The notes under the pieces were generated by a model that was not told the origin of the DNA, made no database searches, and saw nothing but the letters and a program-made list of their open reading frames with translations. Made by a program: the position numbers and the translations under genes. Shown here one piece after another: positions 1 to 25,515 of a stretch of 25,515 bases of DNA. Origin of the DNA: a virus (taxonomy: Duplodnaviria; Heunggongvirae; Uroviricota; Caudoviricetes); the IMG/VR virus record IMGVR_UViG_2609459834_000009, positions 1 to 25,515 of that record; one strand, written 5' to 3'. The number at the start of each line of letters is the position of its first letter. Positions within the stretch are counted from its first letter, which is position 1.

Positions 1-1053
1 TTACGGGGTAATGCCAACCGCTGCCGCCACTTTGTCGCCACTTGGCAGCGTTGCCAGAGGATTGAAACGGAGCGCCGTTTCCAGATGATCCGGTGCCAGA
101 TGTGCGTAACGCATAGTCATTTTTATATCGTGGTGTCCGAGAATTTTTTGTAAGGCCAGAATGTTTCCACCCGACATCATGAAGTGCGCCGCAAACGTAT
201 GGCGCAGAACGTGTGTGAGTTGACCGCGAGGGAGCACGATAGACGTTTTTTCCATCACGGATAAAAATTGAAAATAGCAGTCTGTGAAGAAATTGAACCC
301 ATCAAGCGCCATGATCTCTTCGTAAAGCTCTTTACTGATAGGGATGCTTCTGTTTTTCTTCCCCTTCGTTCTGACAAAGGTAATTCGGTATTTGGTCACC
401 TGTGAGCGGGTAAGATTTACGGCTTCACGCCAGCGTGCGCCTGTGCTTAAGCATATCTTAACTACCAGTGCCAGAATTGGGTCCTGACGTTTGCAATCAG
501 CCAGCAATTCAACAATCTGCTCATGGGTAAGCCATGCCATCTCTTTTTCTGCGATGGTGAATTTTCGCATGTTCTCCAGTGGGTTCGGATACGACCATTC
601 GCCCAGACGGGATAGTTCGCTAAAAACACTACTTAGATAGCTTTGCTCCAGGTTAATGGTGACCGGGCTTGCTCCTTTCTTCCATTTCTCGCTGAAGTAG
701 ATCTCGCCTGTCAGGCGTTTATCTCGATAGTGGGCAAACATTTTAGAGGTGAGATCGGTTGCAAGAGGATTGCCCAGAGCGTCAACCATCAACAGCAATT
801 TGTCATAGACATGCTGCCCAGCTGTCAGAGATTTACCATGTAGTTTGAACCATAGCTCAACCACGTCTTTCAGTGTTCGACGATCCACTGATTCACCCAG
901 CCAGGGCTTTGCTTCGGTTTCTTCCATCGTGTGGCGCTCAAAAGCCAGTGCTTCGCCTTTGGTGACGAATTGTTTACGCACACGACGCCCACTTCGTCCG
1001 GCGGGGTAACATTCGCAAAGCCATTTCCCAGTGGTGAGTTTTCGTACTGCCAT
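1..1053 (-). CDS. int: Tyrosine-type site-specific integrase (P2/186 family)
   Basis: Translation has the tyrosine recombinase C-terminal catalytic region (ARWREA, HVLRHTFA, MRYAHL). ORF is open to 1209, but the N-terminus aligns with P2 Int from the Met at 1051-1053 (MAVRKLTTGKW); upstream extension judged untranslated. Stop at 1-3. Confidence 0.85.
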   Translation of the reverse strand: MAVRKLTTGKWLCECYPAGRSGRRVRKQFVTKGEALAFERHTMEETEAKPWLGESVDRRTLKDVVELWFKLHGKSLTAGQHVYDKLLLMVDALGNPLATDLTSKMFAHYRDKRLTGEIYFSEKWKKGASPVTINLEQSYLSSVFSELSRLGEWSYPNPLENMRKFTIAEKEMAWLTHEQIVELLADCKRQDPILALVVKICLSTGARWREAVNLTRSQVTKYRITFVRTKGKKNRSIPISKELYEEIMALDGFNFFTDCYFQFLSVMEKTSIVLPRGQLTHVLRHTFAAHFMMSGGNILALQKILGHHDIKMTMRYAHLAPDHLETALRFNPLATLPSGDKVAAAVGITP

Positions 1054-1241
1054 AAAAAATGCCCTCCAGTAGAGAGCATTTTCACTGTATGTATAACCAG
1101 TGTCAATGTATGAAATTCTACGACCATACATCTCACTGAAGCCATAATTAAGTTGGCTATTCTTTTTGCTATGTGAGCATGTAACTTTTGCGGTTAACCT
1201 GCGGCTCATTTTTATTTTAGACGCAGATATAAAAGCAAAAG

Positions 1242-1448: not shown

Positions 1449-2105
1449 CTATTTAACATACTTGACTGTTAAACTTATAATTTTACCAATTATTTCAATG
1501 TCTTCTATCTTGCATTCGAAGGCTCTGTTTCCACCCTCGACGAAGATTCTTCCACCGGGTAAACGAGTAATGTCACGGATCGTTATTTCGCCATCAATAC
1601 TTATTACCCATTTACCATCACGTATATCATCAAATTCTTTATCACAAATAAATTCAGAATTGTTATCTGTGATGACAAAAGGTTTTTTAAACGTAGAGGG
1701 TAGAAATCCCTTATCAAAAATATAAAAACCGTCTTTCTGCAATGCTCCATCAGACAATAAATATTTTTCTACTTCTATAGTATTTGTATTTGCTGATGCT
1801 TGCTTTGAACCATGCCCTGTTGTTAGCCAATTAAGCGAGGTGCCCGTTTCAAGGGCGCACTGGATTACCCAATCTGCTGGAAAAATATCACGCATATAGC
1901 GCGTTGCCATGGTGCTCTTAGAAACACCTAAATGATCACATAGAGCCTGACGGGTACCGAACCCATATGCTTCAACTAAACGTTCTATGGCTTTCTTACC
2001 GCCGCTATTGAAATCCACAAGTCCTCCAAAGAAATCCAAAATTCGTTGACAGATTCCAAAAGCGATCTTAAAGTTGAACCAGAAGTGTTCTTTTGGAGCC
2101 TTCAC
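1449..2105 (-). CDS. cI: CI-type immunity repressor (helix-turn-helix)
   Basis: HTH-like segment (GTRQALCDHLGVSKSTMATRYMRD) near the N-terminus; divergent from the Apl/Cox-like gene; immediately upstream of int on the same strand as in P2/186. Start at 2105 is GTG; a shorter product from an internal start is possible. Confidence 0.7.
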   Translation of the reverse strand: MKAPKEHFWFNFKIAFGICQRILDFFGGLVDFNSGGKKAIERLVEAYGFGTRQALCDHLGVSKSTMATRYMRDIFPADWVIQCALETGTSLNWLTTGHGSKQASANTNTIEVEKYLLSDGALQKDGFYIFDKGFLPSTFKKPFVITDNNSEFICDKEFDDIRDGKWVISIDGEITIRDITRLPGGRIFVEGGNRAFECKIEDIEIIGKIISLTVKYVK

Positions 2106-2948: not shown

Positions 2949-3245
2949 ATGCTGACGAAAGAACCATCATTTGCATCGCTGCTGGTAAAACAAAGCCCGG
3001 CAATGCACTACGGTCACGGCTGGATCACGGGTGAGGATGGAAAACGCTGGCATCCATGTCATTCACAAGATGAATTGCTGTCTGAATTGACCACGAGGAA
3101 ACGGAGAAAGTCCAAATGTATGCGGCAGAAAGTGAAGTGGTTTATCAGTTTCGTTACAGAGGGGAGAGTTATTCAGTACCTGAAGATGATTTGCTCTGTT
3201 GCTATCCGTCATTGTCGGGCGATGGCAGTTACTTTTTCACGTTAA
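2949..3245 (+). CDS. Hypothetical early protein (fil-position ORF); 3' portion doubtful
   Basis: ATG at 2949 with GAGGTG RBS. N-terminal 55 aa look protein-like; the C-terminal part overlaps the next ORF in another frame and looks like read-through. Confidence 0.3.
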   Translation: MLTKEPSFASLLVKQSPAMHYGHGWITGEDGKRWHPCHSQDELLSELTTRKRRKSKCMRQKVKWFISFVTEGRVIQYLKMICSVAIRHCRAMAVTFSR

Positions 3246-3340
3246 AGGATGGGACGTTTTTACGGGGAGAGCAGGTTAAAGAGATGATACGAAAAAATAT
3301 ATCTCCTCTTGAGCGTTACCGTAAGAACAAAGAGCGATAG
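3116..3340 (+). CDS. Hypothetical early protein
   Basis: 74-aa ORF with GGAG 9 nt upstream; composition looks like genuine coding sequence; overlaps previous ORF in a different frame. Confidence 0.4.
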   Translation: MYAAESEVVYQFRYRGESYSVPEDDLLCCYPSLSGDGSYFFTLKDGTFLRGEQVKEMIRKNISPLERYRKNKER

Positions 3341-3362
3341 CTGCGTTTGGGGGATATGAAGT

Positions 3363-3704
3363 ATGGCAATTAATGGCGCTGCAGCAACTGTTCCATTAAG
3401 CCCCGGTGAACGCCTGAATGGACTTAATCACATTGCAGAGTTAAGGGCGAAAGTATTTGGCCTGAATATTGAGTCAGAGCTTGAGCGGTTTATTAAAGAT
3501 ATACGTGATCCACGGGATGTTAATTATGAACGAAATAAACGGGCACTGGCTGCTATATTCTTTATAGCAAAAATTCCAGCTGAACGTCATAGCATCAGCA
3601 TTAATGAACTGACCACTGACGAAAAGCGGGAGTTGATTAAAGTAATGAATCATCTTCGTGCAGTGGTGAGCTTATTTCCCAGACGGCTAGCCATGCCGAA
3701 TTAA
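3363..3704 (+). CDS. Hypothetical early protein
   Basis: 113-aa ORF, ATG with G-rich RBS, same strand in early operon. Confidence 0.55.
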   Translation: MAINGAAATVPLSPGERLNGLNHIAELRAKVFGLNIESELERFIKDIRDPRDVNYERNKRALAAIFFIAKIPAERHSISINELTTDEKRELIKVMNHLRAVVSLFPRRLAMPN

Positions 3705-3771
3705 CCAATTAATGAAATTCATGGCGTAAACCCGCCGGGCATTCCTTTATCTAAATTCAGGAGAATTGATT

Positions 3772-4005
3772 ATGCGTAATATTGAAACCCTCTCGACTAA
3801 AACCGGACCGGATGACGCAGGACTTAATATTTTACTGACAGAGGCTCGTCTGGAAGAACGTCGGGCAAGGGCTGAGGCAATGGCTGCCCGCCTTGATAGC
3901 CTTGCGTGTCATATTACATCCCGCCAGCTAAACCACGTCGAAGCAGCAGAACTGCTGCGTGTGACCGCTGAAGCAATCCAGAACGAAGCGCAGGAGGTCC
4001 ACTAA
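3772..4005 (+). CDS. Hypothetical early protein
   Basis: AGGAGA RBS 7 nt upstream of ATG at 3772 (track start 3766 is TTG); stop overlaps next start (TAATG). Confidence 0.6.
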   Translation: MRNIETLSTKTGPDDAGLNILLTEARLEERRARAEAMAARLDSLACHITSRQLNHVEAAELLRVTAEAIQNEAQEVH

Positions 4006-4232
4006 TGGCTGATGCAATGGATCTCGTACAGCAGCGCGTTGAAGAAGAACGCCAGCGCCATATCCGTGCAGCCCGTGCCAAATCACCGGGCGTGTCACGC
4101 GTACTTTGCATTGAATGTGAAGCGCCAATTCCGCCAGCACGACGCCGCGCCATTCCGGGAGTGCAGCTTTGCATTACCTGTCAGGAAATCGCAGAACTGA
4201 AAGGCAAACATTACAACGGAGGTGCTGTATGA
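4005..4232 (+). CDS. TraR/DksA-family C4 zinc-finger protein
   Basis: Cys-x2-Cys ... Cys-x2-Cys pattern (CIECEAPIP...CITCQ) in a 75-aa protein; AGGAGG RBS; translationally coupled to flanking genes. Confidence 0.75.
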   Translation: MADAMDLVQQRVEEERQRHIRAARAKSPGVSRVLCIECEAPIPPARRRAIPGVQLCITCQEIAELKGKHYNGGAV

Positions 4233-5086
4233 GCACCATCCTGAAATGGGCGGGAAATAAAACCGCCATTATGCCAGAACTGAAAAAATACCTTCCTGCT
4301 GGCCCGCGACTGGTTGAACCTTTCGCGGGTTCCTGTGCTGTGATGATGGAAACGGATTATCCCAGCTATCTGGTTGCGGATATTAATCCTGATTTAATCA
4401 ACCTCTATAAAAAGGTTGCCGCTGATTGTGAATCGTTTATATCTCGCGCCAGAGTTTTATTTGAGATCGCAAACAGGGAGGTGGCTTATTACAACATAAG
4501 GCAGGAGTTTAACTGCTCAACTGAAATTACTGATTTCATGAAAGCGGTATATTTCCTGTATCTTAATCGTCACGGTTACCGTGGTTTATGTCGCTATAAC
4601 AAGAGCGGGCATTTCAACATCCCCTACGGTAATTATAAAAATCCGTATTTCCCTGAAAAAGAACTTCGCACATTTGCAGAAAAAGCCCAGCGAGCAACGT
4701 TTATCTGCGCCAGCTTTGATGAAACGCTGGCGATGTTGAAGGCGGGAGATGTGGTGTATTGCGATCCGCCGTATGACGGTACGTTTTCCGGCTATCACAC
4801 TGATGGTTTCACTGAAGATGACCAGTATCACCTGGCATCCGTTCTTGAACATCGGTCATCAGAAGGACATCCAGTCATTGTTTCTAACAGTGACACATCC
4901 CTGATCCGTTCGCTGTATCGCAATTTTACTCACCACTATATCAAGGTAAAACGCAGCATCGGTGTGGCAGCTGGCGAGGGTAAATCAGCAACAGAAATCA
5001 TTGCTGTTTCCGGGCCGCGCTGCTGGATGGGATTTGATTATTCGCGTGGCGTGGATAGTTCTGCCGTGTACGGAGTACGTGCATGA
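4229..5086 (+). CDS. dam: N6-adenine DNA methyltransferase (Dam-like, D12 class)
   Basis: DPPY catalytic motif and N-terminal AdoMet-binding region ([17 protein letters not shown]); ATG at 4229 with GGAGG RBS; ORF-track start 4169 rejected. Confidence 0.85.
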
Positions 5087-7497
5087 GTCATGCCGATATG
5101 AACAACTGCTGCGGCTTTAACGAGGCTGCCGCAGCATTCTCATGGAACAGCCCGAAAAAGGCCATTAACCCTTATCTGGACCCGGCGGAAGTTGCGCCGG
5201 TTTCTACGCTTTCAAACCTGATCACTCTGTACGCTGCCGATAACGAGCAGGAACAGTTGCGCCGCGAGGCACTGAGTGATCAGGTCTGGGAGCGTTATTT
5301 CTTTAATGAATCACGTGATCCTGTCCAGCGCGAAATGGAGCAGGATAAGCTCATTAGCCGGGCAAAGCTGGCGCATGAGCAGCAGCGTTTTAATTCAGAC
5401 ATGGTCATTCTGGCGGACGTCAACGCCCAGCCTTCCCATATCAGCAAGCCGCTGATGCAACGTATTGAATACTTCAGCAGCCTGGGCAGGCCAAAGGCTT
5501 ATTCCCGCTATTTACGTGAGACGATTAAGCCATGTCTGGAACGACTGGAGCATGTACGCGACAGTCAGCTATCTGCATCTTTTCGCTTTATGGCAAGCCA
5601 TGAAGGGCTGGACGGCCTGCTGATCCTGCCTGAAATGAGTCAGGATCAGGTGAAACGCCTGTCCACCCTGGTAGCTGCGCATATGAGTATGTGCCTTGAT
5701 GCAGCTTGTGGTGATTTGTATGCCACCGATGACGTTAAGCCAGAAGAAATCCGCAAGACATGGGAAAAGGTGGCAGCGGAAACCCTGCGTCTGGATGTCA
5801 TCCCACCTGCGTTTGAGCAACTCCGTCGGAAAAGAAACCGCCGTAAACCCGTGCCCTATGAACTCATTCCGGGTTCGCTGGCGCGTATGTTGTGCGCCGA
5901 CTGGTGGTACCGGAAATTATGGAAGATGCGTTGCGAATGGCGGGAAGAGCAGTTGCGCGCTGTTTGCCTGGTCAGCAAAAAAGCATCTCCTTATGTCAGC
6001 TATGAAGCCGTGATGCATAAACGTGAGCAGCGCCGTAAGTCGCTGGAGTTTTTCCGTTCTCATGAACTGGTGAACGAAGACGGCGACACGCTGGACATGG
6101 AGGATGTGGTAAACGCCAGCAGCAGCAACCCTGCGCATCGCCGCAATGAGATGATGGCCTGTGTTAAAGGTCTGGAGCTTATCGCGGAAATGCGCGGTGA
6201 CTGCGCCGTTTTCTACACTATCACCTGTCCGTCGCGTTTCCATTCCACGCTAAATAACGGCAGACCAAACCCGACCTGGACAAACGCGACGGTAAGACAA
6301 AGCAGCGATTATCTGGTCGGCATGTTTGCTGCATTTCGTAAGGCGATGCACAAAGCCGGGTTGCGCTGGTATGGCGTGCGGGTGGCTGAGCCGCATCATG
6401 ATGGCACAGTTCACTGGCACCTGTTGTGTTTCATGCGCAAAAAAGACCGCCGTGCCATCACTGCATTACTGCGTAAGTTTGCCATCCGTGAAGACCGCGA
6501 GGAGCTGGGCAATAACACTGGGCCGCGCTTTAAGTCTGAGTTGATTAACCCGCGCAAAGGAACGCCGACAAGCTACATCGCGAAATATATCAGTAAGAAC
6601 ATTGACGGTCGTGGTCTGGCTGGCGAGATCAGCAAGGAAACGGGTAAATCTCTGCGTGATAACGCTGAATACGTGAATGCCTGGGCGTCTCTGCATCGTG
6701 TTCAGCAATTCCGCTTCTTTGGTATTCCGGGGCGTCAGGCTTACCGTGAACTTCGCTTGCTGGCTGGTCAGGCGGCAAGGCAACAGGGTGACAAAAAAGC
6801 AGGTGCGCCGGTACTGGATAACCCGCGTCTTGATGCCATTCTGGCTGCTGCTGATGCTGGTTGTTTTGCCACCTACATCATGAAGCAGAGCGGCGTACTG
6901 GTTCCCCGTAAATATCACCTCATCAGAACCGCTTATGAAATCAACGAAGAGCCGACCGCCTATGGCGATCACGGCATTCGTATTTATGGCATCTGGTCAC
7001 CCATTGCAGAGGGCAAGATCTGCACTCATGCAGTGAAGTGGAAAATGGTTCGTAAAGCCGTTGACGTTCAGGAGGCGGCAGCCGACCAGGGCGCTTGCGC
7101 CCCTTGGACTCGTGGCAATAACTGTCCCCTTGCTGAAAATTTGAACCAACAAGGGAAAGACAAATCAGCTGATGGGGATACCAGGACGGACATTACCCGC
7201 ATGGATGACAAGGAGTTGCACGATTACCTGCACAGTATGAGCAAAAAAGAGCGCCGGGAACTGGCTGCAAGGTTACGCCTGGTGAAGCCGAAACGGCGTA
7301 AAGACTACAAACAGCGAATTACAGACCATCAGCGACAGCAGCTCGTCTATGAACTGAAGTCCAGAGGATTTGATGGCAGCGAGAAAGAGGTCGATTTACT
7401 CCTTCGCGGCGGCAGTATTCCGTCAGGAGCAGGCCTGCGTATCTTCTATCGGAACCAGCGTTTGCAGGAAGATGATAAGTGGCGAAACCTGTATTAA
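5083..7497 (+). CDS. A: Replication initiation endonuclease (P2 gene A family, rolling-circle)
   Basis: 804-aa product with HUH-like motif (HWHLLCF) and YIAKYISKN active-site tyrosine region; ATGA overlap with dam stop. Confidence 0.85.
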
Positions 7498-7589
7498 TTA
7501 CGCGGGTTAACAATTCGTGCTCTTAATAATACCAGGCATATCAGGCTGATGAACGTAAAAAAACGTTTTACATCAGTAAGATTATTATA

Positions 7590-7609
7590 TACTGTAAATA
7601 TAAACAGTG
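7590..7609. promoter_or_regulatory. LexA (SOS) box, CTGT-N8-ACAG
   Basis: tACTGTaaatataaACAGtg, a near-consensus SOS box, about 45 bp upstream of the ORF at 7651 and overlapping AT-rich promoter-like sequence. Confidence 0.65.
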
Positions 7610-7650
7610 GTTATACATACAGTATTGCTTGTGGTGTCATAGGAGGAAAG

Positions 7651-7839
7651 ATGCAGGACTATTTTTTGGAGTCTTTGAAGCTCCAGCGCATTGATTTTTT
7701 TCTTAAGCTTGTAGCGGCTAGTGAGTGTAGTGATGAAGAGAAGGGGCTGGCTTTGCAGTGGGTTTCTGAACTGACAGATGAACTCATGGCAAAAATCAGA
7801 ACCCACGAATACAACCGCTCAATGGATGTCATCAGCTGA
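7651..7839 (+). CDS. Small SOS-regulated hypothetical protein (first gene of tum-like module)
   Basis: 62-aa ORF, ATG at 7651 with AGGAGG RBS; ORF-track start 7549 rejected because it would read through the LexA box. Confidence 0.5.
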   Translation: MQDYFLESLKLQRIDFFLKLVAASECSDEEKGLALQWVSELTDELMAKIRTHEYNRSMDVIS

Positions 7840-7849
7840 GGTGACTTTT

Positions 7850-8083
7850 ATGCGCATTGAAATAATGATCGATAAAGAGCAGAAGATTAGCCAGTCTACC
7901 CTGGACGCCCTTGAATCCGAGCTTTACCGCAATCTGCGCCCTATGTATCCCAAAACGGTAATTCGTATCCGCAAAGGTAGCTCTAACGGTGTAGAACTTA
8001 CCGGATTGCAACTGGACGAAGAAAGAAAACAAGTGATGAAAATTATGCAGAAGGTGTGGGAAGACGACAGCTGGCTGCATTAA
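7850..8083 (+). CDS. DinI-family protein
   Basis: 77-aa product MRIEIMIDKEQ...VWEDDSWLH with the DinI N- and C-terminal signatures (MRIE..., WE.D.W); GAGGTG RBS. Confidence 0.75.
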   Translation: MRIEIMIDKEQKISQSTLDALESELYRNLRPMYPKTVIRIRKGSSNGVELTGLQLDEERKQVMKIMQKVWEDDSWLH

Positions 8084-8218
8084 GAAACGTTGCTGGCGTC
8101 TGAACTTGTTTCTGGCGTCAGCAAGGTTGAACAACGAGCCCTTGCGAGGCGTTAGCTCTGTAGTGCATGTCTATGCCGCATGAGATCGCATGATCGTTTG
8201 AGGATCGTTTTTGCTAAG

Positions 8219-8242
8219 GCCCGCCAGAACTGGCGGGCTTTT
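8219..8242 (+). terminator. Rho-independent terminator after the SOS module
   Basis: GCCCGCCA-gaac-TGGCGGGC hairpin followed by TTTT. Confidence 0.6.
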
Positions 8243-8287
8243 GCGTAGATCATGCAGGTGCATGAAAACCACTACATAAAGCGGGCA

Positions 8288-8306
8288 GGCGTGGCGGGGA
8301 TACGAG
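8288..8306. other. cos-like motif (possible cohesive-end site)
   Basis: GGCGTGGCGGGGA resembles what I recall of P2/186 cohesive-end sequences; recollection-based and unverified. Confidence 0.3.
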
Positions 8307-8378
8307 CGCGCGCCATGTGGTATGGAGATTGGATCTATTCATAACTTGATGTATAAAGTAGAAAAAAGCGGGGAGATT

Positions 8379-9302
8379 ATGAATAAAAAATTTACCGATG
8401 AGCAGCAACAACAGCTTATAGGACATCTCACAAAGAAAGGCTTCTATCGAGGAGCTAATATTAAAATAACCATTTTTCTATGTGGTGGTGACGTTGCTAA
8501 TCATCAATCTTGGCGTCATCAATTATCACAATTTTTAGCAAAGTTCAGTGATGTTGATATATTTTATCCAGAAGATCTATTTGATGATCTTTTGGCTGGT
8601 CAAGGGCAGCATAGCCTTTTAAGTTTAGAAAATATTCTGGCTGAAGCTGTCGATGTAATAATTTTATTTCCTGAAAGTCCGGGGTCTTTCACAGAGCTTG
8701 GTGCGTTCTCTAATAATGAAAACTTAAGGAGAAAGTTGATTTGCATTCAAGATGCAAAATTTAAATCAAAACGTAGCTTTATTAACTATGGTCCTGTTCG
8801 CCTGTTGCGTAAGTTTAATTCAAAATCTGTTTTGCGTTGTAGTTCAAATGAACTAAAAGAAATGTGTGATTCATCTATTGATGTTGCCAGAAAATTACGA
8901 TTATATAAAAAATTAATGGCATCTATTAAGCAGGTTAGGAAAGAAAATAAAGTATCAAAAGATATTGGAAATATATTATACGCAGAGCGGTTTCTATTGC
9001 CTTGTATCTATTTACTGGATAGTGTCAACTACCGCACACTGTGTGAACTAGCTTTTAAAGCGATAAAGCAAGATGATGTTTTATCTAAAATTATTGTTAG
9101 ATCCGTTGTTTCTCGTCTAATAAATGAACGAAAAATACTTCAAATGACTGATGGTTATCAGGTCACTGCTTTGGGGGCTAGCTATGTTAGGAGCGTCTTT
9201 GATAGAAAGACACTTGACCGATTGCGGCTTGAGATTATGAATTTTGAAAACCGTAGAAAATCAACATTTAACTATGATAAGATTCCGTATGCGCACCCTT
9301 AG
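8379..9302 (+). CDS. Retron effector protein (putative nucleoside 2-deoxyribosyltransferase-like N-domain plus C-terminal domain)
   Basis: 308-aa ORF in AT-rich DNA immediately upstream of msr-msd; its stop codon (TAG 9300-9302) lies inside the a1 repeat. Start ambiguous (ATG at 8322, 8349 or 8379). Confidence 0.7.
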   Translation: MNKKFTDEQQQQLIGHLTKKGFYRGANIKITIFLCGGDVANHQSWRHQLSQFLAKFSDVDIFYPEDLFDDLLAGQGQHSLLSLENILAEAVDVIILFPESPGSFTELGAFSNNENLRRKLICIQDAKFKSKRSFINYGPVRLLRKFNSKSVLRCSSNELKEMCDSSIDVARKLRLYKKLMASIKQVRKENKVSKDIGNILYAERFLLPCIYLLDSVNYRTLCELAFKAIKQDDVLSKIIVRSVVSRLINERKILQMTDGYQVTALGASYVRSVFDRKTLDRLRLEIMNFENRRKSTFNYDKIPYAHP

Positions 9303-9458
9303 CGAGAGGTTTATCATTAAGGTCAACCTCTGGATGTTGTTTCGGCATCCTGCATTGAATCTGAGTTACTGTCTGTTTTCCTTGTTGGAACGGAGAGCAT
9401 CGCCTGATGCTCTCCGAGCCAACCAGGAAACCCGTTTTTTCTGACGTAAGGGTGCGCA
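9290..9458 (+). ncRNA. msr-msd: Retron msr-msd non-coding RNA (template/primer for msDNA)
   Basis: Flanked by 12-nt inverted repeats a1 TGCGCACCCTTA (9290-9301) and a2 TAAGGGTGCGCA (9447-9458); internal msr hairpin AGAGGTT/AACCTCT and long imperfect msd stem around GGAGAGCATC-gcct-GATGCTCTCC; sits directly upstream of the RT gene. Matches my recollection of the Ec86 ncRNA. Confidence 0.85.
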
Positions 9459-9464
9459 ACTTTC

Positions 9465-10427
9465 ATGAAATCCGCTGAATATTTGAACACTTTTAGATTG
9501 AGAAATCTCGGCCTACCTGTCATGAACAATTTGCATGACATGTCTAAGGCGACTCGCATATCTGTTGAAACACTTCGGTTGTTAATCTATACAGCTGATT
9601 TTCGCTATAGGATCTACACTGTAGAAAAGAAAGGCCCAGAGAAGAGAATGAGAACCATTTACCAACCTTCTCGAGAACTTAAAGCCTTACAAGGATGGGT
9701 TCTACGTAACATTTTAGATAAACTGTCGTCATCTCCTTTTTCTATTGGATTTGAAAAGCACCAATCTATTTTGAATAATGCTACCCCGCATATTGGGGCA
9801 AACTTTATACTGAATATTGATTTGGAGGATTTTTTCCCAAGTTTAACTGCTAACAAAGTTTTTGGAGTGTTCCATTCTCTTGGTTATAATCGACTAATAT
9901 CTTCAGTTTTGACAAAAATATGTTGTTATAAAAATCTGCTACCACAAGGTGCTCCATCATCACCTAAATTAGCTAATCTAATATGTTCTAAACTTGATTA
10001 TCGTATTCAGGGTTATGCAGGTAGTCGGGGCTTGATATATACGAGATATGCCGATGATCTCACCTTATCTGCACAGTCTATGAAAAAGGTTGTTAAAGCA
10101 CGTGATTTTTTATTTTCTATAATCCCAAGTGAAGGATTGGTTATTAACTCAAAAAAAACTTGTATTAGTGGGCCTCGTAGTCAGAGGAAAGTTACAGGTT
10201 TAGTTATTTCACAAGAGAAAGTTGGGATAGGTAGAGAAAAATATAAAGAAATTAGAGCAAAGATACATCATATATTTTGCGGTAAGTCTTCTGAGATAGA
10301 ACACGTTAGGGGATGGTTGTCATTTATTTTAAGTGTGGATTCAAAAAGCCATAGAAGATTAATAACTTATATTAGCAAATTAGAAAAAAAATATGGAAAG
10401 AACCCTTTAAATAAAGCGAAGACCTAA
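9465..10427 (+). CDS. ret: Retron-type reverse transcriptase
   Basis: 320-aa product with RT motifs QGAPSSPKLANL and YADD, plus the retron-characteristic VTG motif (RKVTGLVI). Confidence 0.9.
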   Translation: MKSAEYLNTFRLRNLGLPVMNNLHDMSKATRISVETLRLLIYTADFRYRIYTVEKKGPEKRMRTIYQPSRELKALQGWVLRNILDKLSSSPFSIGFEKHQSILNNATPHIGANFILNIDLEDFFPSLTANKVFGVFHSLGYNRLISSVLTKICCYKNLLPQGAPSSPKLANLICSKLDYRIQGYAGSRGLIYTRYADDLTLSAQSMKKVVKARDFLFSIIPSEGLVINSKKTCISGPRSQRKVTGLVISQEKVGIGREKYKEIRAKIHHIFCGKSSEIEHVRGWLSFILSVDSKSHRRLITYISKLEKKYGKNPLNKAKT

Positions 10428-10440
10428 TGGTCTTCGTTTT
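10417..10440. terminator. Bidirectional hairpin terminator between RT (+) and portal gene (-)
   Basis: CGAAGACC-taat-GGTCTTCG followed by TTTT on the plus strand and AAAA beyond; overlaps the RT stop codon. Confidence 0.55.
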
Positions 10441-10444
10441 AAAA

Positions 10445-11470
10445 CTAAAGCTCATAGGTTGAAAAATTGAGCACTTCTTCGTCCAACCAGTTATTTAGTT
10501 CCTGCAATCGTTTCTGCAGGGGCATCAATTCGTTTCTTACGAATACCTTGCTAGCCTTCTCCACATCCCCAAACCCCCCGACATTATTAGGCATAATTCC
10601 CATCATTTGCGGCGGCACGCGGTGTGCCGCCATCATGTCATCACGGCTCACGTTCTTGATATTCAGAAACTCATCCTTCGCTGCGACTTCTGACAACGGG
10701 ATAATCTGAAGTCCGTCTTTTTTACCATTAGGCGAGTACATAAACAGGTTGCGGAAGTTGCCAGGGCCTTTGGCACTTTTCATCGCATTGCGGAGGTTGT
10801 TCACATCTTCCTGGTTCTGCGCGGCGTCGGTCATATACATGATGAAGCCAGCATGACTGCCGTTAATGTAATACTTTCGACGGAACAGCGTGGCGGACTC
10901 ATTGAGCAGGGCGGACGGAATGGCAGAAAGATAGCCTGGCAAGCCGTAGATCTCCTGGTTAATGTCCGGTTCCATCAGATGAAAAATGCTGCCTTTCGTG
11001 AACTGATACGGCTGGGTTGTCATACCGTATTGCACAAACCAGTAGGTATCCAGGTCTAACCCGCGTCGGGTGTATTTTGCCAGTGCAGGCTCAAGGGCGA
11101 TAACTTCACCGAAGCGGTTCGTGCGTTTCTCCAGGTAGGCGTTACCAAAAACCAGATAGTCCTGCACAAAACGCGAAAAAGCCTGCTGGCTGAGCAGCGG
11201 GTGAGGGATGTAGGTGCTGGTCAGAATGTTGCACTTCACTGCAATCGGTGAGCTGTGATGCACGGCGGCGCGGAAGGTTCGCGCCAGTCCGTCGAAACTC
11301 ACAGGCGGCTCATACCAACGATCCATCTGTACGCATTCCACATAGTCCAGCAGTTCGCGGCGGTCCAGAACAGGAACGGGATCGCCAAAGCTGAATGCTT
11401 CGGCTGAAGTTTGGTTTTTATGCTGGATCTGATTCGTCGCCGCAGCGCGTTTTTTCTTACTCTTTCCCAT
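10445..11470 (-). CDS. Q: Portal protein (P2 gpQ family)
   Basis: 341-aa product co-linear with P2 Q; ATG at 11468-11470 with GGAG RBS; start overlaps terminase stop (TGATG). Confidence 0.85.
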   Translation of the reverse strand: MGKSKKKRAAATNQIQHKNQTSAEAFSFGDPVPVLDRRELLDYVECVQMDRWYEPPVSFDGLARTFRAAVHHSSPIAVKCNILTSTYIPHPLLSQQAFSRFVQDYLVFGNAYLEKRTNRFGEVIALEPALAKYTRRGLDLDTYWFVQYGMTTQPYQFTKGSIFHLMEPDINQEIYGLPGYLSAIPSALLNESATLFRRKYYINGSHAGFIMYMTDAAQNQEDVNNLRNAMKSAKGPGNFRNLFMYSPNGKKDGLQIIPLSEVAAKDEFLNIKNVSRDDMMAAHRVPPQMMGIMPNNVGGFGDVEKASKVFVRNELMPLQKRLQELNNWLDEEVLNFSTYEL

Positions 11471-24417: not shown

Positions 24418-25515
24418 TCAAGAGGCCTTATTTCTGCTCCTTTGGAGCTCTTCAAAACGATTATGTAAAGATTTCGGATACAGTTCGGTATATACCTGCC
24501 ATAGCACGTTTAATGAACGATGCCCTGTAACCTGGGCGACTTCCTCAATACTAAAACCAGCCTCAAATAAGCGACTTGCCCCTTCTCTACGCAAATCATG
24601 GTATCGCAGATCTTTAATACCTAATTTGCTTCTTACCCTCTGGAATCCCGCAGTAACAGAAGTGCTGTTATATGGAAAAATGAATTCTGATTTTTTGGGT
24701 TGTCGTTGGACGATATCCCAGGCTTCCCCAAGCAAGGCTACTTTCATATGGTTGCCTTCCTTTTTACGTGGATCTTTCCTGTCTCTTACGAGTATGGATT
24801 TTTGTTCCTGATCGAGATCCTCCCATCGTAATCGGCATACTTCACCGATTCGCATACATGACCACACAGAAAATTTGAGGATATCAACGAACGGAATTTT
24901 TGAGCATTTATGTGTAGATCGTTGTTGAAGACCTTCAATGAGCATGTCCAGTTCATCAGATGCCGGTCTACGATTACGACGATTTGATTTACCAATTAAA
25001 CCAAGTTTAAGTAGATATGGACGAGCGGCTTTTGCTGGGTTTGATGTGTAATTAATTCCATATACAGGTTTGGCAGCATCCAGAACACTGCCAAGATAAC
25101 TAACATCGTGGCTAACTGTAGCTGGACCTGCACCAGCGTTGTTTCTTAGCCTGCAATGTTCAATTACGTCATTTTCTGTCAGTTCAGATAGTTTGATCGC
25201 GGAGATGTCACTATCCATAAGCAGTTCCAGCACATATCTTTTAGTACGGCCTGCTTTACCTCCGGCATTTGGGTCATTTAAATATTTGTGTAGTAAGTCA
25301 CGGACTGTAAGTCCGTCAACTGCATTTGATGATGGAATGCCATATAGATCTAATTCCATCACTTTCTGTGTGCCCCATGTTTTGGCATGAGCATGTTTAG
25401 GGAATGTTTTACTTTCCCTGTAAGTGATAACACCTTTTTCTTTGATAATCACATTACAGCGATAGCGTGGTGTGCCATCGGATTTTAGTCGTTTCTCTAT
25501 GTTATAGTACGCCAT
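24418..25515 (-). CDS. Tyrosine-type integrase of a second integrative element (start at window edge; may be N-terminally incomplete)
   Basis: 365-aa translation with phage-integrase C-terminal catalytic region (HDLRREGASRL, ...VYTELYP); the ATG at 25513-25515 is the last codon of the window. Confidence 0.75.
   Translation of the reverse strand: MAYYNIEKRLKSDGTPRYRCNVIIKEKGVITYRESKTFPKHAHAKTWGTQKVMELDLYGIPSSNAVDGLTVRDLLHKYLNDPNAGGKAGRTKRYVLELLMDSDISAIKLSELTENDVIEHCRLRNNAGAGPATVSHDVSYLGSVLDAAKPVYGINYTSNPAKAARPYLLKLGLIGKSNRRNRRPASDELDMLIEGLQQRSTHKCSKIPFVDILKFSVWSCMRIGEVCRLRWEDLDQEQKSILVRDRKDPRKKEGNHMKVALLGEAWDIVQRQPKKSEFIFPYNSTSVTAGFQRVRSKLGIKDLRYHDLRREGASRLFEAGFSIEEVAQVTGHRSLNVLWQVYTELYPKSLHNRFEELQRSRNKAS

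What the first reader, a model, noticed from the sequence alone, without database searches (positions are those of the whole stretch)
4005..5086. Orphan Dam-type methyltransferase translationally coupled to a TraR-type zinc finger and the replication gene
TraR-like, dam and A overlap by 4 nt at each junction (ATGA), so the methylase is co-expressed with replication functions in the early operon. No restriction partner is visible. A phage-borne orphan GATC methylase can protect against GATC-cleaving restriction systems or alter replication timing and gene regulation; this Dam is outside the retron.
Basis: partly seen in the sequence, partly recalled or inferred. Interest (0 to 1): 0.4.

Follow-up and report, generated by a model that had tools for sequence, protein, structure and literature searches.

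The report
Known prophage Dam methylase, early operon
A 186/P2-type prophage carries an orphan Dam-family DNA adenine methylase between a small TraR-like zinc-finger gene and its replication gene; the description is correct, but this gene family has been known since 1990 and sits in about a quarter of complete E. coli genomes, so it is ordinary.

Summary
A TraR/DksA zinc-finger gene (4005-4232), a D12-class Dam-family methylase gene (4229-5086, 285 aa) and replication gene A (5083-7497) are joined by ATGA stop/start overlaps. Each start is preceded by a Shine-Dalgarno sequence.

The window is a phage-186-like prophage. These genes lie in the CI-repressed early lytic operon.

The methylase is 47.7% identical to E. 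coli Dam. It keeps DPPY and every GATC-contacting residue except N120, which is R. No ORF in the window has a restriction-enzyme domain.

The gene belongs to the long-known "retron Ec67 Dam" family, also annotated in Fels-2. It occurs in 1240 of 5426 complete E. coli genomes, including E. coli B.

In phage 186 the same slot holds three other genes with the same 4-nt overlaps. The 186 record says translation of the last one is needed for A translation.

Most likely role: a lytic-phase GATC methylase that supplements limiting host Dam while phage DNA replicates.

New side observations:
- The slot just upstream of A is a mosaic cargo site enriched for DNA-modification genes.
- This clade has an invariant GATC one base upstream of the -10 of the candidate early promoter.

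Verdict: correct, already known, low interest.

The parts
2046..2074 (+). Candidate early lytic promoter pR (TTGACA, 17-nt spacer, TAAAGT), with a GATC at 2064-2067 one base upstream of the -10 hexamer.
   Evidence: Promoter scan, 10 of 12 matches. Its position matches the annotated pR of phage 186 next to the cI start. The GATC is invariant in this clade. TCCAAA(A)G repeats, possible CI half-sites, flank it.
3772..4005 (+). DUF2732 gene (homologue of P2 orf80 / 186 orf79); its stop overlaps the TraR-like start by 1 nt.
   Evidence: Pfam PF10809, E=7e-29. Annotated CDS at the identical sequence in L001. Sequence read.
4005..4232 (+). TraR/DksA-type C4 zinc-finger gene (75 aa).
   Evidence: Pfam PF01258, E=3e-11. 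NCBIfam TIGR02419, 66.2 bits against a cutoff of 59.7. Matches F-plasmid TraR bound to RNA polymerase (PDB 5w1s, 6n57; E about 2e-9) and YbiI. PHROG 54, E=2e-30.
4218..4232 (+). TraR-dam junction: SD GGAGG 4218-4222, and ATGA 4229-4232 (dam start overlapping the TraR stop).
   Evidence: Sequence. ATGA is conserved in 51 related loci. The block GGAGGTGCTGTATGA also precedes dam when the upstream gene is DUF3850 rather than TraR. A predicted hairpin over the SD has z=-2.6 but shows no covariation.
4229..5086 (+). dam: orphan Dam-family (D12 class, alpha-type) N6-adenine DNA methyltransferase, 285 aa, predicted target GATC.
   Evidence: Pfam PF02086, E=2e-75. TIGR00571, 318 bits against a cutoff of 114.85. 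E. coli Dam structure 2g1p, E=3e-73. 47.7% identity to E. coli Dam, with conserved contact residues and DPPY at 179-182. PADLOC orphan MTase, E=2e-110.
5072..5086 (+). dam-A junction: SD GGAG 5072-5075, and ATGA 5083-5086 (A start overlapping the dam stop).
   Evidence: Sequence. The same 4-nt overlap with A occurs whatever gene precedes A. The 186 record has a note on coupling.
5083..7497 (+). Replication gene A (P2 gpA-type HUH nicking endonuclease, 804 aa), with the ori homologue at about 7088-7127.
   Evidence: Pfam PF05840, E=1e-127. Local alignment to the annotated P2 and 186 ori nick sites.

Best explanation
The gene at 4229-5086 encodes a GATC-specific N6-adenine DNA methyltransferase of the Dam family with no restriction partner.

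It is the second-to-last gene of the early lytic operon of a phage-186-like prophage: pR, apl, cII, fil, DUF5347, DUF2732, TraR-like, dam, A. In a lysogen the operon is shut off by CI. On infection or induction the methylase is made together with the replication initiator A.

The overlapping stop/start codons mean that ribosomes finishing the TraR-like gene restart on dam, and ribosomes finishing dam restart on A. Whatever sits in this slot therefore also passes translation on to A.

The enzyme's likely job is to add to the limiting host Dam while the phage genome multiplies. The window has about one GATC per 290 bp. Progeny DNA would then be packaged fully methylated and so be safe from nucleases that cut un- or hemi-methylated GATC.

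What is shown and what is inferred:
- Shown: gene identities, overlaps, synteny and residue conservation.
- Inferred: GATC activity (about 0.85), lytic-phase expression (about 0.85), coupling (about 0.7), and topping-up or self-protection as the selected function (about 0.5).
For: Family and target:
- Pfam, NCBIfam and PDB matches.
- The residues of E. coli Dam that the structural literature assigns to GATC recognition are K9, Y119, L122, R124, P134 and Y138 (PMC4417163). These and DPPY are invariant or nearly invariant (each in at least 103 of 106 sequences) in the window protein and 105 family members.
- The one changed base-contacting residue, N120 to R, is S in the proven GATC enzyme T4 Dam.

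Orphan status: no nuclease family in any window ORF, and the best PADLOC model is the orphan MTase.

Operon and timing:
- Gene order matches the annotated pR operon of 186, Fels-2, Cartapus and P2.
- All genes are on one strand, and no strong terminator-like site was found on that strand before the end of A.

Coupling:
- ATGA overlaps with SDs.
- The 186 record notes that translation to the end of orf84 is needed for A translation.
- The 4-nt overlap with A is kept whichever cargo gene precedes A.

Purpose:
- Relatives hold other DNA-modifying genes in the same slot: a C5 methylase, a DpdA-like transglycosylase, a PAPS-reductase-like gene and further methylases. This argues for modification of replicating phage DNA.
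- Host Dam is described as rate-limiting for high-copy DNA, and phage Dam as an anti-restriction function (bioRxiv 10.1101/2020.06.22.160242).
- GATC is not avoided in the window: 88 sites, observed/expected 0.74.
Against: - No activity or specificity was measured here, and I could not read the 1990 paper on the Ec67 Dam.
- N120, a base-contacting residue in E. coli Dam, is R throughout this clade. A 5-residue loop after DPPY is deleted. An altered flank preference cannot be excluded.
- All known hosts are Dam-positive. The benefit of a second GATC methylase therefore depends on the host enzyme being limiting, which was not shown for this phage.
- dam and A each have their own SD, so coupling may be partial.
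- The predicted hairpin over the dam SD has no covariation support.
- Some close relatives lack dam altogether, or carry it frameshifted or separated by an IS element. It is therefore dispensable.
Confidence: 0.7

Rival explanations
1. The methylase is mainly a regulator. It methylates the conserved GATC that sits one base upstream of the -10 of the early promoter pR, the promoter that drives dam itself, and possibly other sites. Promoter strength or CI rebinding would then depend on methylation state. This would give feedback that helps commit the phage to lytic growth, or that marks incoming versus resident DNA.
For: - The motif GATCnTAnnnT lies within 150 nt of the cI start in 66 of 76 loci of the window-type clade. 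It is absent from all 77 loci of the 186 clade. Background is 0.047 per kb.
- Among 31 distinct promoter sequences the four GATC positions carry 1.8-2.0 bits, while the rest of the spacer carries 0.2-1.2 bits.
- Putative CI half-sites abut the GATC.
- A review reports that excision of the P2-like prophage SopE-phi is favoured by Dam methylation, through unidentified targets (PMC7380047).
Against: - Seven of eight dam-less loci of the same clade keep the GATC, so host Dam would suffice.
- Other Dam-carrying Peduoviridae genera (ev129, SI7) have no GATC in their best predicted early promoter.
- The promoter is predicted, not mapped.
- The association is confounded by shared ancestry.
- Nothing indicates the direction of any effect.
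Confidence: 0.2
2. The methylase acts on the host. A burst of Dam activity during lytic growth would remove hemimethylated GATC from the host chromosome. This would disturb SeqA/oriC control and methyl-directed mismatch repair, as part of host takeover alongside Fil and the TraR-like RNA-polymerase factor.
For: - The gene sits among host-directed early genes: a Fil homologue and a TraR homologue that matches RNA-polymerase-bound TraR structures.
- From general knowledge, Dam overproduction in E. coli perturbs initiation synchrony and raises mutation rate.
Against: - No direct evidence.
- The other cargo genes found in the same slot (C5 methylase, DpdA-like) fit modification of phage DNA better than host manipulation.
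Confidence: 0.08
3. The protein is inactive or has a target other than GATC.
For: - N120 is R.
- The second glycine of the FxGxG motif is C (EPFAGSC).
- R137 is N or H.
- Five residues after DPPY are missing.
- Its score is below the cutoff of the housekeeping-Dam equivalog model, 287 against 441 bits.
- A 2015 methylome paper stated that no recognition site was known for close homologues of a prophage Dam homologue (PMC4659465). I could not show that enzyme to be the same family.
Against: - All other catalytic and GATC-contact residues are invariant or nearly invariant (each in at least 103 of 106 sequences) across family members at 69-100% identity. That implies purifying selection on an active enzyme.
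- T4 Dam differs at the same positions and still methylates GATC.
- The family carries the name 'retron EC67 DNA adenine methylase'. The title of the 1990 paper describes 'Dam methylase functions' (reference quoted).
Confidence: 0.07

Closest known systems
'Retron Ec67' DNA adenine methylase (Hsu, Inouye and Inouye 1990) and its copies in 186-like prophages, e.g. Fels-2 STM2730, phage Cartapus gp42, E. coli B REL606 ECB_RS04375, K. pneumoniae Kp52145 BN49_RS11250
   Same: - Same family. A member of the same 90%-identity cluster carries this name.
- The Fels-2 protein is 71.9% identical and annotated by similarity to the Ec67 methylase.
- Same length class (285 aa) and same position between the TraR-like gene and A, with the same overlaps.
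- Dodd and Egan 1996 showed that retrons Ec67 and Ec86 sit in 186-related prophages (cited).
   Different: Nothing of substance. In this window the retron in the variable hotspot is Ec86-type (type II-A) rather than Ec67. I could not obtain the original Ec67 sequence or paper for a direct comparison.
E. coli housekeeping Dam (PDB 2g1p)
   Same: - 47.7% identity over 258 aligned residues.
- Same fold class and motif order.
- Same DPPY and the same GATC-contact residues K9, Y119, L122, R124, P134 and Y138.
   Different: - It is a phage paralogue, not the orthologue: it scores below the equivalog cutoff.
- N120 is R, R137 is N, a 5-residue deletion follows DPPY, and there is an extra 20-residue C-terminal tail.
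- It is expressed from a repressor-controlled phage operon rather than constitutively.
Phage T4 Dam (and, from general knowledge, P1 Dam)
   Same: A phage-encoded orphan GATC methylase in a Dam-positive host. T4 Dam aligns across the catalytic and recognition regions.
   Different: - Only about 25% identical.
- T4 is virulent, and the gene context is different.
- No packaging dependence on methylation, as known for the P1 pac site, is indicated for cos-packaging P2/186 phages.
Phage 186 orf82-orf83-orf84 and P2 orf83 (the genes that occupy the same slot)
   Same: - Same position between the zinc-finger gene and A, with the same chain of 4-nt overlaps.
- The 186 record notes that translation of orf84 is needed for A translation.
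- The last residues of 186 orf84 (VCSSVYAGVCE*) resemble those of this Dam ([11 protein letters not shown]).
   Different: The proteins are unrelated: an RNase T-like exonuclease, DUF5405 and a PAPS-reductase-like protein. 186 and P2 have no Dam.
F-plasmid TraR / lambda Orf73-type RNA-polymerase secondary-channel factors (for the upstream gene)
   Same: C4 zinc finger of the TraR family, about 75 aa. It matches TraR chains solved in complex with RNA polymerase.
   Different: HMMER aligned only residues 24-70. Conservation of the N-terminal acidic tip (MADAMD here) rests on my memory of the TraR sequence. No functional data.

Membership tests
Dam family / D12-class (alpha-type) N6-adenine DNA methyltransferases | Full-length match to the family profile above the curated threshold. 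| tested here: met
   PF02086: 254 bits against a cutoff of 22, profile positions 1-253 of 253. TIGR00571: 318 bits against a cutoff of 114.85.
Dam family / D12-class (alpha-type) N6-adenine DNA methyltransferases | Catalytic motif IV (DPPY) and the AdoMet-binding motif I (FxGxG) with its acidic residue, in the order motif I, recognition domain, motif IV. | tested here: met
   DPPY at residues 179-182. Motif I is EPFAGSC (F32, G34; the second G is C throughout the clade). D51 aligns with D54 of E. coli Dam. The order is the same as in E. coli Dam.
Dam family / D12-class (alpha-type) N6-adenine DNA methyltransferases | GATC-recognition residues of E. coli Dam: K9, Y119, N120, L122, R124, P134, Y138. 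| tested here: met
   Six of the seven are identical in the window protein and in at least 105 of 106 family members. N120 is R in all 106. T4 Dam has S at that position. Residue roles are taken from PMC4417163.
Dam family / D12-class (alpha-type) N6-adenine DNA methyltransferases | Methylation of the adenine in GATC. | not testable with these tools
   This needs DpnI/MboI digestion or SMRT/nanopore sequencing of DNA from a dam-minus host expressing the gene.
Housekeeping Dam orthologue (NCBIfam equivalog NF008152) | Score above the equivalog cutoff. | tested here: not met
   287 bits against a cutoff of 441. It is a phage paralogue, not the chromosomal dam.
Orphan (solitary) methyltransferase | No cognate restriction endonuclease gene next to it or elsewhere in the element. 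| tested here: met
   The neighbours are the TraR-like gene and A. No nuclease or restriction-enzyme family was found in any other window ORF. The best PADLOC model is the orphan MTase. No restriction enzyme is annotated in the 25.5 kb of phage Cartapus examined. The window does not contain the whole prophage.
Translationally coupled gene pair | Stop codon of the upstream gene overlapping or abutting the start codon of the downstream gene. | tested here: met
   ATGA at 4229-4232 and 5083-5086; TAATG at 4003-4007. Conserved in relatives.
Translationally coupled gene pair | Downstream translation depends on upstream translation. | not testable with these tools
   There is only indirect support. 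The 186 GenBank record carries a note on the homologous junction. A predicted hairpin over the dam SD has z=-2.6 but no covariation.
Early lytic (pR) operon of 186-like phages | Same strand and gene order downstream of a CI-controlled promoter that lies next to a divergent cI gene. | tested here: met
   cI 1449-2018 (-), candidate pR 2046-2074 (+), then cII, fil, DUF2732, TraR-like, dam and A all on the + strand. The order matches the annotated 186 operon. Transcription itself was not measured.
TraR/DksA C4 zinc-finger family (upstream gene) | Profile match above threshold and four zinc-binding cysteines (CxxC ... CxxC). | tested here: met
   PF01258: 43.5 bits against a cutoff of 24.9. TIGR02419: 66.2 bits against a cutoff of 59.7. 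The sequence has C-I-E-C and C-I-T-C.
Retron (as a component of it) | Lies within the msr-msd / RT / effector unit. | tested here: not met
   The retron occupies 8322-10427. dam lies 3.2 kb upstream in the conserved phage backbone. It is also present in relatives whose hotspot carries other cargo.

The most novel reading that the evidence does not exclude
The phage Dam and the invariant GATC one base upstream of the -10 of the early promoter pR form a methylation-sensitive circuit. The promoter that drives dam would read the methylation state of its own DNA: fully methylated virion DNA, hemimethylated freshly replicated DNA, or a CI-protected site in the lysogen. The phage enzyme would lock that state in, biasing the lysis/lysogeny or induction decision.

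A related and more modest reading is that the position just upstream of gene A is a dedicated, translationally wired cassette site. Peduoviridae would swap DNA-modification genes there: Dam, C5 methylase, DpdA-like, PAPS-reductase-like.
Probability: 0.2. Interest if true: 0.55.

Novelty: already known. Interest (0 to 1): 0.2.

Why it matters
For the finding as given, it matters little. It correctly describes a common, annotated gene of 186-like prophages.

Three practical points follow:
- E. coli B strains carry an intact second Dam-family gene next to retron Ec86. REL606 and several other B isolates show it. By inference this includes BL21, which the literature says carries the same retron in a P2-like prophage.
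- Phage Dam activity is a known trigger of some retrons, through GATC sites in their msDNA.
- The physiological reason why phages of Dam-positive hosts keep their own Dam is still untested for this family.

The two side observations are cheap to test and could explain reported Dam effects on P2-like prophage excision. They are the DNA-modification cargo slot upstream of A and the invariant GATC at the candidate early promoter.

Tried and rejected
1. A 186-like transcription terminator just inside A (tM1), which would make A expression depend on translation. The window has only a weak hairpin at about 5181-5200 (z=-1.1). The A N-termini do not align with 186. Not established.

2. A conserved hairpin hiding the dam Shine-Dalgarno sequence. 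It is predicted in the window (z=-2.6). On 27 distinct junction sequences there was no compensatory change and nothing above the shuffled controls. Inconclusive.

3. Methylation control of the replication origin. The ori homologue at about 7088-7127 has no GATC nearer than about 70 bp. Rejected.

4. GATC avoidance or enrichment in the phage. There are 88 sites, observed/expected 0.74, which is in the middle of the range for 4-base palindromes. Nothing notable.

5. A link between dam and the resident retron. The Ec86 msr-msd has no GATC. The triple GATC at 8184-8206 occurs in 25 loci, most of them without a retron. Rejected.

6. Identity with M.EcoMIV of E. coli EC958, a prophage Dam homologue that is poorly transcribed in the lysogen (PMC4659465). 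The P2-like prophage of EC958 that I located has no dam. The link is not established, so I use that paper only as an analogy.

7. A strict association between dam carriage and the pR GATC. It fails: 7 of 8 dam-less loci of the clade keep the GATC, and two Dam-carrying genera lack it.

8. I could not obtain Hsu et al. 1990 or Alonso et al. 2005. A text search for 'Eco67Dam' found nothing.
Full report
**Observation**

- The DUF2732 gene ends at TAA 4003-4005 and the next gene starts at ATG 4005-4007.
- That gene ends at TGA 4230-4232 and overlaps the ATG at 4229-4231.
- The third gene ends at TGA 5084-5086 and overlaps the ATG at 5083-5085.
- Each start has a Shine-Dalgarno sequence 6-7 nt upstream: AGGAGG 3992-3997, GGAGG 4218-4222, GGAG 5072-5075.

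Pfam identifies the three products:
- a DksA/TraR C4 zinc finger (E=3e-11);
- a D12-class N6-adenine DNA methyltransferase matched over the whole profile (E=2e-75);
- the P2-type replication protein gpA (E=1e-127).

The mechanical ORF list extends the methylase ORF back to a TTG at 4169. The ATG at 4229 is the start used by RefSeq on the identical sequence. It is also the start shared by 105 homologues of 270-295 aa.

**Context**

The window is a phage-186-like (Peduoviridae) prophage. Its parts are as follows:
- integrase (1-1209, minus strand) and a 186-type CI repressor (1449-2018, minus strand);
- on the plus strand: CII, Fil, DUF5347, DUF2732, the TraR-like gene, dam and A;
- a DinI/Tum-like gene;
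- a variable segment holding a type II-A retron: NDT effector 8322-9302 and RT 9465-10427;
- portal, terminase, capsid, lysis, baseplate and tail-fibre genes.

The retron RNA region (about 9300-9460) reads, from my memory of that sequence, as the Ec86/Eco1 msr-msd. The literature places that retron in a P2-like prophage of E. coli B (bioRxiv 10.1101/2020.06.22.160242). Dodd and Egan 1996, cited in PMC7826664 and PMC6868368, make the same placement.

The stretch 3700-10500 is 96.5% identical to the REL606 prophage and other E. coli B isolates. There dam is intact and in the same arrangement.

**How common it is**

- The 1082-base finding occurs in 1240 of 5426 complete E. coli genomes. It is annotated everywhere as 'TraR/DksA family transcriptional regulator | DNA adenine methylase | replication endonuclease'.
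- It occurs in 58 phage records, mostly Klebsiella and Escherichia phages.
- The protein is 100% identical in the isolated phage vB_EcoM-813R9 and 71.9% identical in Salmonella phage Fels-2.
- The exact protein is recorded on at least 1000 contigs. Its 90% cluster has 4038 members, one of them named 'retron EC67 DNA adenine methylase'.
- The Fels-2 record annotates STM2730 by similarity to that protein.
- The family goes back to Hsu, Inouye and Inouye 1990, who took the 34-kb 186-like prophage for the retron element (reference and summary in PMC7826664).
- The same TraR-like / dam (858 bp) / A (2415 bp) arrangement with 4-nt overlaps is tabulated for a K. pneumoniae prophage in that paper.

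The gene is therefore already known and routinely annotated.

**Target prediction**

- The protein matches the solved E. coli Dam structures at E=3e-73, DpnM at 2e-34 and T4 Dam at 3e-18.
- It is 47.7% identical to E. coli Dam over 258 aligned residues.
- The structural literature assigns GATC recognition to R124 (fourth base pair), L122 and P134 (third base pair), Y119 (intercalation), N120 (base hydrogen bond), and K9 and Y138 (first base pair) (PMC4417163).
- In the window protein and 105 family members at 69-100% identity, K9, Y119, L122, R124, P134, Y138 and the catalytic DPPY are invariant or nearly so (each in at least 103 of 106 sequences).
- N120 is R in all of them and R137 is N or H. 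Five residues after DPPY are missing.
- T4 Dam, a proven GATC enzyme, has S at the N120 position and also a short loop. These differences therefore do not argue against GATC.
- NCBIfam places the protein in the Dam subfamily (318 bits, cutoff 114.85) but below the equivalog cutoff for the chromosomal Dam (287 against 441). It is a phage paralogue.

I put GATC specificity at about 0.85. It was not measured here.

**Orphan status**

The flanking genes are the TraR-like gene and A. No ORF in the window matches a restriction-enzyme or other nuclease family apart from gpA and the terminase. The best PADLOC model is 'orphan methyltransferase'. The window does not hold the whole prophage. The 25.5 kb of the related phage Cartapus that I examined also has no annotated restriction enzyme.

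**Expression and coupling**

A sigma-70-like promoter (TTGACA, 17 nt, TAAAGT; 2046-2074) lies just beyond the cI start. This matches the position of the annotated pR of phage 186. All genes from there to the end of A are on the same strand, with no strong terminator-like site on that strand. By synteny this is the CI-repressed early lytic operon.

In 186 the stretch between the zinc-finger gene and A holds three other genes, chained by the same 4-nt overlaps: an RNase T-like exonuclease, DUF5405 and a PAPS-reductase-like protein. The 186 record states that 'translation to end of orf84 appears necessary for translation of A protein'. P2 has only DUF5405 there.

I surveyed 80 IMG/VR loci whose A protein is 77-100% identical to the window's.
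- 66 carry dam.
- 51 have the TraR-dam ATGA.
- With careful start calling, A overlaps the preceding gene by ATGA or GTGA almost regardless of what that gene is: Dam, PAPS-reductase-like, most DpdA-like genes or the C5 methylase.
- The few codons before each junction are shared by unrelated genes. '...GGAV*' (GGAGGTGCTGTATGA) ends both TraR and DUF3850 when they precede dam. The Dam tail [11 protein letters not shown] resembles the 186 orf84 tail VCSSVYAGVCE*.

The junctions therefore behave as conserved connectors. They hold the ribosome-binding site for the next gene and are probably also the points where cassettes are exchanged.

Coupling in this window remains an inference. A predicted hairpin over the dam Shine-Dalgarno sequence (z=-2.6) showed no covariation in 27 distinct sequences. 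A 186-like terminator inside A was not found.

**Likely function**

Besides dam, the slot upstream of A holds the following in relatives:
- a DUF3850/ASCH protein;
- a DpdA-like 'queuine tRNA-ribosyltransferase' (PHROG 887, E=3e-96);
- a C5 cytosine methylase;
- the PAPS-reductase-like gene and the exonuclease.

In two other Peduoviridae genera (ev129, SI7) two methylase genes sit directly before A. A slot that collects DNA-modifying enzymes and is co-translated with the replication initiator fits modification of newly made phage DNA.

The window has 88 GATC sites, one per 290 bp, with no avoidance. Host Dam is described as limiting for high-copy DNA, and phage Dam as an anti-restriction function.

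I therefore favour a lytic-phase top-up of GATC methylation that protects progeny DNA, at about 0.5 for this specific purpose.

The gene is dispensable. Some close relatives lack it. One has it frameshifted (L029), and one has an IS element between the TraR-like gene and dam (L053).

The ori homologue at about 7088-7127 has no GATC within about 70 bp.

**A regulatory alternative**

The candidate pR has a GATC at 2064-2067, one base upstream of the -10 hexamer.
- The same placement is seen in REL606, Cartapus and Fels-2, although their immunity regions differ. Phage 186 has none.
- Among 67 loci of the window-type clade with a good 17-nt-spacer promoter, 65 have GATC at spacer positions 13-16. 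That is 29 of 31 distinct promoter sequences.
- Those positions are as conserved as the -35 and -10 hexamers (1.8-2.0 bits). The rest of the spacer is variable (0.2-1.2 bits; 43% mean pairwise identity).
- A search that ignores the -35 (GATCnTAnnnT within 150 nt of the cI start) finds the motif in 66 of 76 loci of this clade and in 0 of 77 loci of the 186 clade. Background is 0.047 per kb.
- Putative CI half-sites (TCCAAA(A)G) abut the GATC.

This suggests a methylation-sensitive early promoter. However:
- 7 of 8 dam-less loci of the clade keep the GATC;
- two other Dam-carrying genera lack it;
- the GATC in the P2 Pe promoter lies inside operator O1;
- the association is confounded by common descent.

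A review notes that excision of the P2-like prophage SopE-phi is favoured by Dam methylation through unknown targets (PMC7380047), which would fit. I give a primarily regulatory role about 0.2.

**Relation to the retron**

Dam overproduction triggers retron Sen2 by methylating a GATC in its msDNA. The Ec86 msr-msd here has no GATC, so the resident retron should be blind to the phage's own Dam. The cluster of three GATC sites at 8184-8206, just before a terminator hairpin at the left edge of the variable segment, occurs in 25 loci that mostly lack a retron. It is not retron-specific.

**Verdict**

The gene belongs to a family described in 1990, annotated in model phages and present in about 23% of complete E. 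coli genomes. Novelty: already known. Interest: low (0.2). The cargo slot and the invariant promoter GATC are the only parts that might repay further work.

Noticed in passing
window 2046-2074 (GATC at 2064-2067); also L003, L089, L090 and L005-L084: An invariant GATC sits one base upstream of the -10 hexamer of the candidate early promoter pR. The motif GATCnTAnnnT is found near the cI start in 66 of 76 loci of the window-type clade and in 0 of 77 loci of the 186 clade. The rest of the spacer varies. This may be a methylation-sensitive promoter.
   Followed up: partly
slot between the TraR-like gene and A: window 4229-5086; e.g. L014 1560-1862, L036 3346-4176, L061 3826-5010, L033 3931-4935, L044 3524-4108, L171 6280-8138, L172 6498-8628: The position just upstream of replication gene A is a mosaic cargo slot enriched for DNA-modification genes. 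Relatives hold Dam, a C5 cytosine methylase, a DpdA-like transglycosylase (PHROG 887), a PAPS-reductase-like gene, DUF3850/ASCH, an RNase T-like exonuclease and additional methylases in other Peduoviridae genera. Nearly all overlap A by 4 nt.
   Followed up: partly
window 4218-4232 and 5050-5086; L002 5712-5748: Unrelated genes share their last few codons at the junctions. '...GGAV*' ends both TraR and DUF3850 when they precede dam. '[11 protein letters not shown]' (Dam) resembles 'VCSSVYAGVCE*' (186 orf84) before A. The junctions look like conserved connectors that carry the next gene's ribosome-binding site and may be recombination points.
   Followed up: partly
window 8322-10427 (msr-msd about 9300-9460): A type II-A retron (NDT effector plus RT) sits in the variable hotspot between the DinI/Tum-like gene and the portal gene. 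Its ncRNA region reads as Ec86/Eco1, from my memory of that sequence. Only 16 complete E. coli genomes carry the whole stretch 3700-10500, including E. coli B strains.
   Followed up: partly
window 8184-8206 and 8219-8243: Three GATC sites lie within 23 bp (plus a fourth at 8248), next to a strong terminator-like hairpin (GCCCGCCAG..CTGGCGGGC TTTT) at the left edge of the variable segment. The motif GATCGCATGATCG occurs in 25 of the loci held at that point, mostly without a retron downstream.
   Followed up: partly
window 24418-25515 (-): A second tyrosine-recombinase gene (PF00589) follows a short tail-fibre-assembly gene. The tail sheath, tube and tape-measure genes expected after the fibre genes are not in the window. 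The prophage may be interrupted or truncated there.
   Followed up: no
L029 4148-5004; L053 about 3245-3971: dam has decayed in some relatives. One locus has it split by a frameshift into 169-aa and 117-aa pieces. Another has an IS1-like element between the TraR-like gene and dam, which would break the coupling.
   Followed up: no
window 7088-7127: A homologue of the P2/186 origin nick site (…GGACTCGTGGCAATAACTGT…) lies inside gene A. The nearest GATC sites are at 6967 and 7017.
   Followed up: yes
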